From assembly GCA_013329045.1 (NCBI GenBank), contig DUKZ01000038.1:126294-190293 (forward strand): a DNA stretch of 64,000 nt. The letters run 5' to 3'. Within the stretch, counting starts at the first letter, position 1. Each line of letters starts with the position of its first letter. Positions 58,696 to 58,872 of the stretch are shown in pieces. The notes under the pieces are model-generated. The model saw only the letters and a list, made by a program, of their open reading frames with translations. It did not search any database and had not been told where the DNA came from. Made by a program: the position numbers and the translations under genes. The DNA is from Candidatus Woesearchaeota archaeon (GTDB lineage: Archaea > Nanobdellota > Nanobdellia > Woesearchaeales > UBA9989).

Positions 58696-58872
58696 ACGGC
58701 TGTGTTGTAGTGGTAGCAAACCACCCTCCCACTGAACCGGGTGCCTGAGTATTGGTGCCCAGGAGAACGGTGGAAGCCCGGGTTCAAAATCAGGTTATGG
58801 GGTTTTGGATGCGGCATACCGGCTTGGAACCGGGGTGCTGGCCTATGCTGATTGAAAGTCCCGGCAGCCGTA
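58696..58872 (+). tRNA. tRNA-Gly (anticodon CCC) with two introns: 36 nt at 37/38 and ~70 nt in the T-loop at 58/59
   Basis: Cloverleaf elements:
- Acceptor stem ACGGCUG/CAGCCGU, then U8.
- D-arm UUGU-AGUGGUA-GCAA.
- Anticodon stem CCACC (58721-25) / GGUGG (58769-73), with loop CUCCCA|C.
- Variable loop AAGC.
- T-stem CCGGG (58778-82) / CCCGG (58860-64), with T-loop UUCAA|GU.
- Discriminator A.

Bulge-helix-bulge-like geometry is present at both intron boundaries. The mature length is 71 nt, and no CCA is encoded. Confidence 0.8.

What the first reader, a model, noticed from the sequence alone, without database searches (positions are those of the whole stretch)
58696..58872. tRNA-Gly(CCC) gene interrupted by two introns, one at the canonical 37/38 site and one inside the T-loop (58/59)
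**Seen in the sequence**
- A complete cloverleaf appears only after removing 58732-58767 (36 nt) and about 58788-58857 (70 nt).
- All canonical nucleotides are then present: U8, A14, G18G19, A21, U33, A37, G53, U54U55C56, A58 and C61. The variable loop is 4 nt.
- C2:G71, G3:C70 and A73 fit archaeal tRNA-Gly identity.
- Intron 1: its 3' end pairs GGAG with loop nucleotides CUCC (4 bp), flanked by the 3-nt bulge AAC next to the anticodon stem. The intron body forms a 7-bp hairpin GGGUGCC/GGUGCCC.
- Intron 2: it is closed by AAUCAG/CUGAUU, with a 3-nt AGU bulge adjacent to the T-stem.

**Established knowledge**
- Bulge-helix-bulge motifs are the substrates of the archaeal splicing endonuclease, and endA is present at 4207-4767.
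- Multiple and non-canonical intron positions are known mainly from Thermoproteales and some small-genome archaea.

**Interpretation**
- Standard tRNA scanners could miss or mis-call this gene. I first mistook it for an SRP RNA.
- The exact intron 2 boundaries are ambiguous by 1-2 nt because of the A-run.
Basis: partly seen in the sequence, partly recalled or inferred. Interest (0 to 1): 0.66.

Follow-up and report, generated by a model that had tools for sequence, protein, structure and literature searches.

The report
Two-intron tRNA-Gly(CCC) gene, DPANN archaeon
This is a real glycine tRNA gene of a Woesearchaeota-like archaeon, hidden from standard scanners by two introns (after positions 37 and 59); such genes are already well known in small-genome archaea, so it is a useful annotation rather than a discovery.

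Summary
ARAGORN and Rfam find no tRNA in the 64-kb window. Removing two inserts from 58696-58872 gives a 71-nt cloverleaf that ARAGORN calls tRNA-Gly(CCC).

An intron-blind metagenome scan for the gene's 5' end recovered eight further distinct tRNA-Gly(CCC) sequences of the same family. Two sequences (four loci) are intron-less and differ from the window's spliced product at 3-4 positions. The others carry an insert at 37/38, at 59/60, or at both. Insert lengths run from 12 to 147 nt and the insert bodies are unrelated. One syntenic relative lacks the T-loop intron.

The spliced products keep the cloverleaf, with 7 compensatory pairs. Both junction helices are maintained, one through a compensatory double change.

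One correction: the T-loop intron lies at 59/60 (58789-58858), not 58/59. The bulge-helix-bulge geometry and the intron-less relatives (T-loop UUCAAAU) agree on this.

A separate genome scan showed that 59/60 T-loop introns are widespread in archaea, and the literature already documents them in DPANN. So this is a new member of a known kind.

A mild open point remains. Both motifs are slightly relaxed, yet the adjacent EndA looks like a plain alpha4 enzyme without the known specificity loops.

The parts
58663..58670 (+). TATA-like element TTTTTATT, about 26-33 nt upstream of the mature 5' end (putative archaeal promoter)
   Evidence: Read from the sequence. Comparable A/T-rich elements lie 20-40 nt upstream in orthologues L128, L129, L141 and L145. 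Promoter function is inferred, not tested.
58696..58731 (+). Exon 1: tRNA nt 1-37 (acceptor 5' strand, D-arm, anticodon stem 5' strand, loop C32 U33 C34 C35 C36 A37)
   Evidence: ARAGORN call on the spliced product. Near-identical to intron-less orthologues.
58732..58767 (+). Intron 1, 36 nt, at the canonical 37/38 site. Its nt 31-34 (GGAG, 58762-58765) pair with C32-C35 (58726-58729). The 3' bulge is A A | C38, and the body forms a 7-bp hairpin.
   Evidence: Constrained folds. Hairpin z = -2.7. Orthologues carry inserts of 12-145 nt at the same site with the same helix.
58768..58788 (+). Exon 2: tRNA nt 38-59 (C38, anticodon stem 3' strand, variable loop AAGC, T-stem 5' strand, U54 U55 C56 A57 A58 A59)
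58789..58858 (+). Intron 2, 70 nt, in the T-loop at 59/60. UGAA (58853-58856) pairs with U54-A57 (58783-58786). The 3' bulge is A G | U60. The inner helix is AUCAG:CUGAU, 5 bp. The 5' bulge is A58 A59, plus the first intron A if its A:U pair opens.
   Evidence: Constrained folds. Geometry statistics on 122 T-arm matches. Orthologues. Body not unusually structured, z = -0.5.
58859..58872 (+). Exon 3: tRNA nt 60-73 (U60, T-stem 3' strand, acceptor 3' strand, discriminator A73). CCA is not encoded.
4222..4767 (+). endA: 181-aa tRNA-splicing endonuclease, single-unit and alpha4-like. It is the presumed enzyme that cuts both introns.
   Evidence: TIGR00324 endA at 120.9 bits against a cut-off of 59.6. 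Collinear with M. jannaschii 1A79, with catalytic Tyr, His and Lys conserved. No paralogue in the window.
3050..3946 (-). RNase Z, presumed 3'-trailer processing enzyme, divergently adjacent to endA
   Evidence: TIGR02651 at 319.7 bits against a cut-off of 292.95.

Best explanation
The locus is a functional tRNA-Gly(CCC) gene of a Woesearchaeota-like (DPANN) archaeon, interrupted by two endonuclease-type (bulge-helix-bulge) introns.

Proposed pathway:
- A ~180-nt precursor is transcribed from a TATA-like promoter about 30 nt upstream.
- In the precursor the anticodon stem is extended by the 4-bp helix C32UCC35:GGAG, and the T-stem by the 4-bp helix U54UCA57:UGAA.
- Each helix is followed on its 3' strand by a 3-nt bulge (AA|C38 and AG|U60). 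On its 5' strand it is followed by the unpaired stretch that holds the 5' cut (C36A37|C and A58A59|A).
- The archaeal splicing endonuclease EndA, encoded 54 kb away at 4222-4767, cuts two nucleotides 3' of each strand of each central helix.
- This releases a 36-nt intron (37/38) and a 70-nt intron (59/60). An RtcB-type ligase joins the three exons into a 71-nt tRNA.
- RNase P and RNase Z (3050-3946) trim the ends, and CCA is added after transcription.

Shown here: the exons, the junction geometry, conservation and covariation across orthologues, presence/absence of both introns in relatives, and the presence of endA and RNase Z.

Inferred from established knowledge of archaeal tRNA splicing: transcription, cleavage, ligation and aminoacylation.
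For: (1) The spliced product is called tRNA-Gly(CCC) by ARAGORN.

(2) An intron-blind scan for the 5' 21 nt of the gene recovered 11 loci (8 distinct sequences) of A1:U72 tRNA-Gly(CCC) genes. Four loci (L129 = L133 = L138, and L137) are intron-less and differ from the window's product at 3-4 nt. L135 and L136 have only a 37/38 insert (20 and 145 nt). L087 = L141 has only a 59/60 insert (22 nt). L134, L128 and L145 have both (12+34, 60+147, 87+70 nt). All reduce to 71 nt when cut at 37/38 and 59/60.

(3) On the 9 distinct spliced products the cloverleaf is 98.9% paired, with 7 of 21 pairs changed on both sides. No shuffle in 500 reaches this, and slid controls pair at 23-50%.

(4) The junction helices are kept. 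H1 is CUCC:GGAG in three genes, GGGG with a G.U pair in one, and has one mismatch in two. H2 is UUCA:UGAA in three genes, UUCG:CGAA (a compensatory double change) in L145, and has one mismatch in L087. The 3' bulge of intron 2 is AG|U in 5 of 5.

(5) The window's intron bodies share no similarity with those of its relatives, as expected when only the junctions are under selection.

(6) L135 is syntenic: a PRC-barrel gene 68% identical lies directly upstream. It lacks the T-loop intron.

102 of 121 matches give a tRNA after excision at 59/60. L016 (a Diapherotrites genome) has the same two-intron Gly(CCC) layout.

(8) endA and RNase Z are in the window.

(9) A 59/60 intron with a relaxed motif was cleaved in vitro by a DPANN endonuclease (PMC3239211).
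Against: - There are no RNA data. Expression, splicing and charging are inferred.
- Both motifs deviate from the strict 3-4-3 form. The minimum-energy fold puts intron 1's 5' cut in a 9x1 internal loop, and a 3-nt bulge needs a 2-bp inner helix. Intron 2's 5' bulge is 2 nt, or 3 nt opposite one unpaired U.
- The window's EndA looks like an alpha4 enzyme without the insertions linked to relaxed-motif cleavage.
- The unconstrained fold of the whole precursor is not the cloverleaf (-71.5 against -65.9 kcal/mol).
- The window's product has C38 where all 8 relatives have A38.
- Whether the genome has a second, intron-less Gly(CCC) gene could not be checked.
Confidence: 0.9

Rival explanations
1. 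Same gene and same mechanism, but the T-loop intron sits at 58/59 as the first reader wrote (58788-58857). The mature T-loop would then be UUCAAGU.
For: ARAGORN accepts that product too. The run of A's makes the 5' boundary ambiguous from sequence alone. The alternative closing helix AAUCAG:CUGAUU is marginally more stable in isolation (-31.5 against -30.8 kcal/mol).
Against: - Cutting two nt 3' of each strand of the helix UUCA:UGAA gives 59/60 on both sides independently.
- Intron-less orthologues read UUCAAAU or UUCGAAU.
- In 838 kb of fetched archaeal DNA, the same T-stem carries UUCAAAU 6 times and UUCAAGU never. Over all 5-bp T-arms, positions 57-60 read AAAU 43 times and AAGU 3 times.
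- The bulge AG|U60 is invariant in all five family members that carry this intron.
Confidence: 0.05
2. A decaying or disabled tRNA pseudogene: a former tRNA-Gly gene wrecked by two insertions and no longer producing a functional tRNA.
For: Standard scanners do not see it. Both BHB motifs are imperfect. C38 is unique to this copy. A second gene copy cannot be excluded.
Against: - All three exons are intact, with every conserved nucleotide and perfect stems.
- Both inserts lie exactly where relatives carry inserts, and they preserve the junction helices and bulges.
- The locus is 100% identical in contigs from at least five samples.
- A TATA-like element is retained.
- Random insertions would not create two splice motifs whose predicted cuts restore exact 7-nt loops.
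Confidence: 0.04
3. Not a tRNA but another structured RNA (for example SRP RNA, as the reader first thought) or a chance resemblance.
For: None found. Rfam's permissive scan gave only E = 2-7 hits to unrelated eukaryotic or viral families.
Against: No Rfam family reaches threshold. Shuffles give 0 matches to locus-specific patterns. An orthologue family includes uninterrupted tRNA genes.
Confidence: 0.01

Closest known systems
ARMAN-2 (Ca. Micrarchaeum) disrupted tRNAs: pre-tRNA-Cys(GCA) with a 59/60 intron, and pre-tRNA-Pro(GGG) with two T-loop introns (Fujishima et al. 2011, PMC3239211)
   Same: A DPANN archaeon. The intron is at exactly 59/60 in the T-loop, with the T-stem as the outer helix. 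The BHB is relaxed on the 5' half. Several introns can occur per gene. In vitro cleavage of such a substrate has been shown.
   Different: The ARMAN-2 enzyme is the three-unit epsilon2 type with a Lys-containing insertion. Here the EndA is a single 181-aa alpha4-like unit without that insertion. The tRNA species and intron sequences differ, and this 59/60 intron is much longer (70 nt against 13 nt).
Multi-intron tRNA genes of Thermoproteales and other Crenarchaeota (Sugahara et al. 2007/2008; Marck and Grosjean 2003, as reviewed in PMC4090602)
   Same: A canonical 37/38 intron combined with a non-canonical one. The junctions follow hBHBh', HBh' or hBH rules. 59/60 is among the listed non-canonical sites.
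   Different: Those organisms use (alpha-beta)2 endonucleases with the crenarchaeal loop. Some of their introns form mobile sequence families, whereas here neither intron is repeated in the window or resembles the introns of its relatives.
tRNA-Gly(CCC) of Ca. Diapherotrites archaeon LH_S9 (locus L016) and metagenome loci L134, L128 and L145
   Same: The same isoacceptor with the same two intron sites (37/38 and 59/60), and the same T-arm and junction helices.
   Different: Different intron lengths (38+29, 12+34, 60+147, 87+70 nt against 36+70). The window's intron bodies are unrelated to theirs. L016 has G1:C72, whereas the window's family has A1:U72.
DPANN alpha4-type EndAs linked to raised tRNA gene disruption (Kaneta et al. 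2018, PMC5829648)
   Same: A single-subunit EndA in a DPANN genome that nevertheless carries non-canonical and multiple tRNA introns. That paper's survey includes a Woesearchaeota genome.
   Different: The paper attributes the breadth to an 'L3' insertion shared with N. equitans and ARMAN-2. In my alignment the window's EndA and eight Woesearchaeota homologues show no insertion at the N. equitans site.

Membership tests
tRNA (elongator tRNA-Gly, anticodon CCC) | Cloverleaf with 7/4/5/5-bp stems and 7-nt anticodon and T loops after removal of the inserts | tested here: met
   ARAGORN call on the spliced product. 98.9% of cells paired with 7 compensatory pairs across 9 orthologous products; 0 of 500 shuffles reach this.
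tRNA (elongator tRNA-Gly, anticodon CCC) | Universally conserved nucleotides (U8, A14, G18G19, A21, U33, G53, U54U55C56, A58, C61) | tested here: met
   Read from the sequence. Invariant across the family alignment.
tRNA (elongator tRNA-Gly, anticodon CCC) | Archaeal glycine identity set (C35, C36, C2:G71, G3:C70, A73), as recalled from the tRNA identity literature | tested here: met
   All are present and invariant in 9 of 9 family members. C2 and G3 were fixed by the search pattern, but G71, C70 and A73 were not. Aminoacylation itself was not tested.
tRNA (elongator tRNA-Gly, anticodon CCC) | Recognition by a curated tRNA covariance model (Rfam RF00005 or tRNAscan-SE) | not testable with these tools
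The interrupted gene gives no hit. tRNAscan-SE is not available.
Archaeal bulge-helix-bulge (BHB) intron | Central 4-bp helix formed between exon and intron at each junction | tested here: met
   C32UCC35:GGAG and U54UCA57:UGAA are both perfect. Both are kept in relatives, including the compensatory UUCG:CGAA.
Archaeal bulge-helix-bulge (BHB) intron | 3-nt bulge carrying the 3' splice site, next to an outer helix | tested here: met
   AA|C38 next to the 5-bp anticodon stem, and AG|U60 next to the 5-bp T-stem. AG|U is invariant in 5 of 5 family members.
Archaeal bulge-helix-bulge (BHB) intron | 3-nt bulge carrying the 5' splice site, closed by an inner helix h' (strict hBHBh') | tested here: not met
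   Intron 1: a 3-nt bulge is possible only with a 2-bp h', and the minimum-energy fold has a 9x1 loop. Intron 2: the 5-bp h' leaves a 2-nt bulge, or 3 nt opposite one U. Both therefore count as relaxed (hBH-like) motifs, a class that is itself documented (PMC3239211, PMC5829648).
Archaeal bulge-helix-bulge (BHB) intron | Cuts placed two nt 3' of each strand of the central helix restore a canonical mature RNA | tested here: met
   Both pairs of predicted cuts restore exact 7-nt loops. The product matches intron-less orthologues apart from 3-4 substitutions.
Archaeal bulge-helix-bulge (BHB) intron | Cleavage by the splicing endonuclease and ligation in vivo or in vitro | not testable with these tools
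   Needs RNA sequencing or an enzyme assay.
alpha4-type (homotetrameric) EndA | A single polypeptide of about 170-190 aa with N- and C-terminal endonuclease domains and the catalytic Tyr/His/Lys | tested here: met
   181 aa. TIGR00324 matched full-length at 120.9 bits. Pfam PF02778 + PF01974. Collinear with M. jannaschii 1A79. Y117, H127 and K158 are invariant.
alpha4-type (homotetrameric) EndA | No separate structural (beta) subunit in the genome; homotetramer assembly | tested here: inconclusive
   No second EndA-like ORF in the 64-kb window. The rest of the genome and the oligomeric state could not be examined.
EndA with broad-specificity insertions (L1/CSL of TACK archaea, L3 of N. equitans and ARMAN-2) | An extra Lys-bearing loop in the N-terminal domain (L1), or between the catalytic Tyr and His in the C-terminal domain (L3) | tested here: not met
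   Only 2 extra residues relative to M. jannaschii in the N-terminal domain. The loop RGIKPGEDH has the same length as the M. jannaschii loop RGANIDKEH and lacks the 6 extra residues of N. equitans (PKKGKRSEREH). Caveat: L3's exact position is taken from the text of PMC3239211 and PMC5829648, not from their figures.

The most novel reading that the evidence does not exclude
Woesearchaeota-type EndA may cleave relaxed bulge-helix-bulge motifs at non-canonical positions without any of the specificity loops (L1, L2, L3) currently held responsible for broad substrate range. It is a single 181-aa alpha4-like unit. If so, some other feature would confer the tolerance. Candidates are the conserved RG(V/I)KPGEDH loop and the Lys-rich N-terminal tail seen in these proteins. 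This tRNA-Gly(CCC) family, with its natural presence/absence variation of both introns, would be a ready-made substrate panel to test that.
Probability: 0.3. Interest if true: 0.45.

Novelty: new member of a known kind. Interest (0 to 1): 0.25.

Why it matters
Practically, this is a real tRNA gene that ARAGORN and Rfam/Infernal miss. It is the only tRNA-like locus detected in about 80 kb of this genome. Missing such genes makes DPANN genomes look as if they lack isoacceptors, and it skews completeness and codon-usage inferences.

Biologically, it adds one well-supported example to a documented pattern of disrupted tRNA genes in small-genome archaea. The orthologue set assembled here shows the same gene with none, one or both introns, including a syntenic relative without the T-loop intron. 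That is a compact illustration of intron turnover at two fixed sites.

The one point a specialist might follow up is the mismatch between slightly relaxed splice motifs and an EndA that lacks the known specificity loops.

Tried and rejected
- **ARAGORN at a lowered threshold with long introns** returned 127 'genes', which is pure noise, so it was discarded.
- **Rfam permissive scan** gave only chance hits. These include a C/D-box-like match (snoZ159, E = 2.8) at 58641-58706, which lacks proper C and C' boxes.
- **First metagenome scan**, with a two-intron pattern requiring a long T-loop intron, found nothing. This lineage has no near-identical relatives in the JGI set.
- **Strain variation:** the locus is 100% identical in L001-L003, L126 and L127, so it gives no information.
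- **Other hidden tRNAs** were looked for in the window and in about 16 kb of flanks, using an insertion-tolerant T-arm/acceptor scan and a search for GC-rich islands. None was found. The islands at 63.9 kb and 1.3 kb are coding sequence.
- **Mobile or duplicated introns:** neither intron recurs in the window or in the 120 genome loci. The motif GAACCGGG(G)UGC shared by the two introns is reached by 3% of shuffles.
- **Functional RNA inside intron 2:** it is no more structured than shuffles (z = -0.5) and I saw no C/D boxes.
- **Homology between the window's introns and those of orthologues:** none. Among the relatives, only the intron 1 bodies of L128 and L145 resemble each other weakly.
- **Relatedness of L087 to the window by shared proteins:** there are no shared genes in its 8 kb.
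- **RtcB or a CCA-adding enzyme** was not found among the window ORFs tested.

Full report
**What is in the sequence.** The stretch 58696-58872 lies in a 266-nt gap between a PRC-barrel protein gene (58374-58655) and a wHTH-nucleotidyltransferase gene (58922-59491). It contains the most GC-rich 50-nt patch of any gap between long ORFs in this 45% GC window, apart from a coding stretch at the window's edge. ARAGORN finds no tRNA anywhere in the window, with or without its intron option. Rfam finds nothing at gathering thresholds, and a permissive scan of the locus gives only chance hits. Removing 58732-58767 and the ~70-nt insert in the T-loop produces a 71-nt sequence that ARAGORN calls tRNA-Gly(CCC). 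Removing only one insert gives nothing, or, with the intron option, a wrong Ser(AGA) call, because ARAGORN ignores splice-motif geometry.

**Junction geometry.** With the four cloverleaf stems enforced, both inserts adopt bulge-helix-bulge-like structures.
- *Intron 1:* the anticodon stem is followed by the 3-nt bulge AAC, then the 4-bp helix C32UCC35:GGAG. The 5' cut (after A37) lies in a 3-nt bulge only if a 2-bp inner helix (U:A, G:C) forms. The minimum-energy fold instead has a 9x1 internal loop followed by the 7-bp hairpin.
- *Intron 2:* the T-stem is followed by the bulge A-G-U60, then the 4-bp helix U54UCA57:UGAA, then two unpaired A's (A58, A59), then the 5-bp inner helix AUCAG:CUGAU.

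Applying the rule that each cut falls two nucleotides 3' of a strand of the central helix gives 37/38 for intron 1 and 59/60 for intron 2. On both sides this restores exact 7-nt loops.

**Organism and enzymes.** The window encodes typical archaeal housekeeping genes: Hef, AglB/STT3, SecY, PheRS alpha and beta, RNase Z and EndA. The 181-aa EndA has its best named relatives (62-65% identity) in 'Candidatus Woesearchaeota' and 'Nanoarchaeia' MAGs, and nothing lies between 99% and about 65%. So this is a DPANN archaeon without closely related sampled relatives. The same locus occurs, 100% identical, in several ENA metagenome assemblies.

**How common is a 59/60 T-loop intron?** One scan of 185,579 species-representative genomes looked for the Gly-type T-arm with an 11-71-nt insert whose 3' end can pair with UUCA. 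I estimated about 17 chance matches for the whole, mostly bacterial, collection. The hits are almost all archaeal: Woese-, Micr-, Aenigm-, Nano- and Iainarchaeota, Nitrosopumilales, Bathyarchaeia, Asgard archaea, and MAGs labelled Methanosarcinales. Excising the insert at 59/60 yields an ARAGORN tRNA in 102 of 121 matches. These cover many isoacceptors, and many of them also need an anticodon-loop intron. The inner helix, which the pattern did not require, is enriched only in the canonical 3-nt-bulge register, and the bulge dinucleotide AG is the commonest, as in the window. L016 (a Diapherotrites genome) has a tRNA-Gly(CCC) with both a 37/38 and a 59/60 intron. The literature already lists 59/60 as a non-canonical site (PMC4090602). 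It also shows in vitro cleavage of an ARMAN-2 pre-tRNA-Cys with a relaxed 59/60 motif (PMC3239211), and it notes raised tRNA disruption in DPANN with alpha4-type EndAs (PMC5829648).

**The orthologue family (decisive evidence).** A first metagenome scan that required both introns found nothing. The allowed second scan used only the gene's 5' 21 nt, with N at three covarying stem positions, so it was blind to intron content. It returned 18 loci. Eleven are A1:U72 tRNA-Gly(CCC) genes and the rest are chance matches in other DNA.
- L129 = L133 = L138 and L137 are uninterrupted 71-nt genes. They differ from the window's predicted product at 3-4 positions and read UUCAAAU or UUCGAAU in the T-loop.
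- L135 and L136 carry only a 37/38 insert (20 and 145 nt).
- L087 = L141 carries only a 59/60 insert (22 nt).
- L134, L128 and L145 carry both (12+34, 60+147 and 87+70 nt).

Every gene reduces to 71 nt when cut at 37/38 and 59/60. On the nine distinct products the cloverleaf is 98.9% paired and 7 of 21 pairs changed on both sides. No shuffle in 500 reaches any measure, and sliding the partners drops pairing to 23-50%. The anticodon-side helix is CUCC:GGAG or a one-step variant. The T-loop helix is UUCA:UGAA in three genes and UUCG:CGAA in L145, a compensatory double change. The 3' bulge of the T-loop intron is AG|U in all five genes that carry it. The window's intron bodies show no similarity to those of any relative. 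L135 is syntenic with the window: a PRC-barrel gene 68% identical lies directly upstream. It has an uninterrupted T-loop, so the T-loop intron has been gained or lost between related genomes. A/T-rich TATA-like elements lie 20-40 nt upstream in the window and in several relatives. Conserved exons, unconstrained intron bodies, conserved junction helices and presence/absence at fixed sites are together what real endonuclease-type introns look like.

**Mechanism.** The best-supported reading is the standard archaeal pathway. A precursor is transcribed. EndA cleaves both BHB-like motifs, leaving 2',3'-cyclic phosphate and 5'-OH ends. An RtcB-type ligase joins the exons, RNase P and RNase Z trim the ends, and CCA is added, since it is not encoded. 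The gene structure, the motifs and the presence of endA and RNase Z are shown here. The enzymatic steps are inferred from established knowledge. No RtcB was found among the window ORFs tested.

**A mild tension.** The literature holds that alpha4 and alpha2 enzymes need the strict 3-4-3 motif, and that relaxed motifs need the insertions L1, L2 or L3 (PMC3239211, PMC5829648). The window's EndA is collinear with the M. jannaschii alpha4 enzyme and keeps the catalytic Tyr, His and Lys. It has no insertion where N. equitans carries its Lys-rich loop, and eight Woesearchaeota homologues are the same. No second EndA-like gene is in the window. Yet both introns here, and several in the family, have relaxed 5' halves. 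There are three possibilities: these motifs are close enough to strict, a second subunit lies elsewhere in the genome, or this enzyme lineage is broader than its architecture suggests. This is the most novel reading left open. I give it about 0.3.

**Rivals.**
- A 58/59 placement is disfavoured by the geometry, by the intron-less orthologues and by the T-loop census.
- A pseudogene is unlikely given intact exons, preserved splice motifs and identity across samples, but it cannot be excluded without RNA data or the full genome.
- Another RNA family or a chance resemblance is excluded.

**Verdict.** It is a new member of a well-known kind. Its value lies mainly in annotation, with a modest lead on EndA specificity.

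Noticed in passing
window 58922-59940 (+) and 52375-53458 (-): There are two nucleotidyltransferase-plus-small-ORF pairs within 7 kb. The first lies directly downstream of the tRNA gene: a wHTH-NTP_transf_2 protein (58922-59491) whose stop overlaps the start of a 150-aa ORF with no family hit. The second is an NTP_transf_2 protein (52847-53458) followed by an ORF with a weak HEPN hit (52375-52896). Both look like MNT/HEPN-type toxin-antitoxin modules.
   Followed up: partly
window 3050-7688: A cluster of tRNA-related genes: RNase Z (3050-3946, -), EndA (4222-4767, +) and a Trm5/TYW2-family methyltransferase (about 6849-7688, +). PheRS alpha and beta follow at 9746-12939.
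   Followed up: partly
window 58768 (tRNA position 38): The window's tRNA has C38, which would give a C32/C38 combination. All eight distinct relatives have A38. The effect on decoding is unknown.
   Followed up: no
window 58641-58706: A weak Rfam match to a C/D-box snoRNA model (snoZ159, 16.4 bits, E = 2.8) spans the end of the PRC-barrel gene and the tRNA 5' end. It has two CUGA boxes but no good C or C' box, so it is probably chance.
   Followed up: partly
loci L005, L009, L012, L017, L087 and about 15 more (genome contigs): Many TPA MAGs labelled 'uncultured Methanosarcinales archaeon' carry 59/60 T-loop introns. L087's tRNA-Gly(CCC) gene sequence is identical to that in L141, a contig whose name points to a groundwater sample (Hain-H51-01um). 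It also belongs to the same A1:U72 family as the window's gene. The taxonomic labels of these MAGs may be wrong, and they may be DPANN.
   Followed up: no
window 476-691 and 21765-21983: A ~220-nt stretch inside the TrmB-family regulator gene (422-1279) is 84% identical, in inverted orientation, to part of the ORF at 21183-21983. These are presumably paralogous regulators.
   Followed up: no
window 1-64000 plus about 16 kb of flanks (L124, L126): About 80 kb of this genome contains no tRNA detectable by ARAGORN, and only this one by an insertion-tolerant scan. Either tRNA genes are sparse here or others are disrupted in ways my scan does not cover, for example inserts at 53/54 or 56/57, or split genes.
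   Followed up: partly
window 4222-4275 (EndA N-terminus) and homologues P0012, P0036, P0044, P0085: Woesearchaeota EndAs carry a Lys/Glu-rich N-terminal tail of about 15-35 residues that is absent from the aligned part of the M. jannaschii enzyme. It is short (about 16 residues) in the window's protein. A possible extra RNA-binding element; untested.
   Followed up: no
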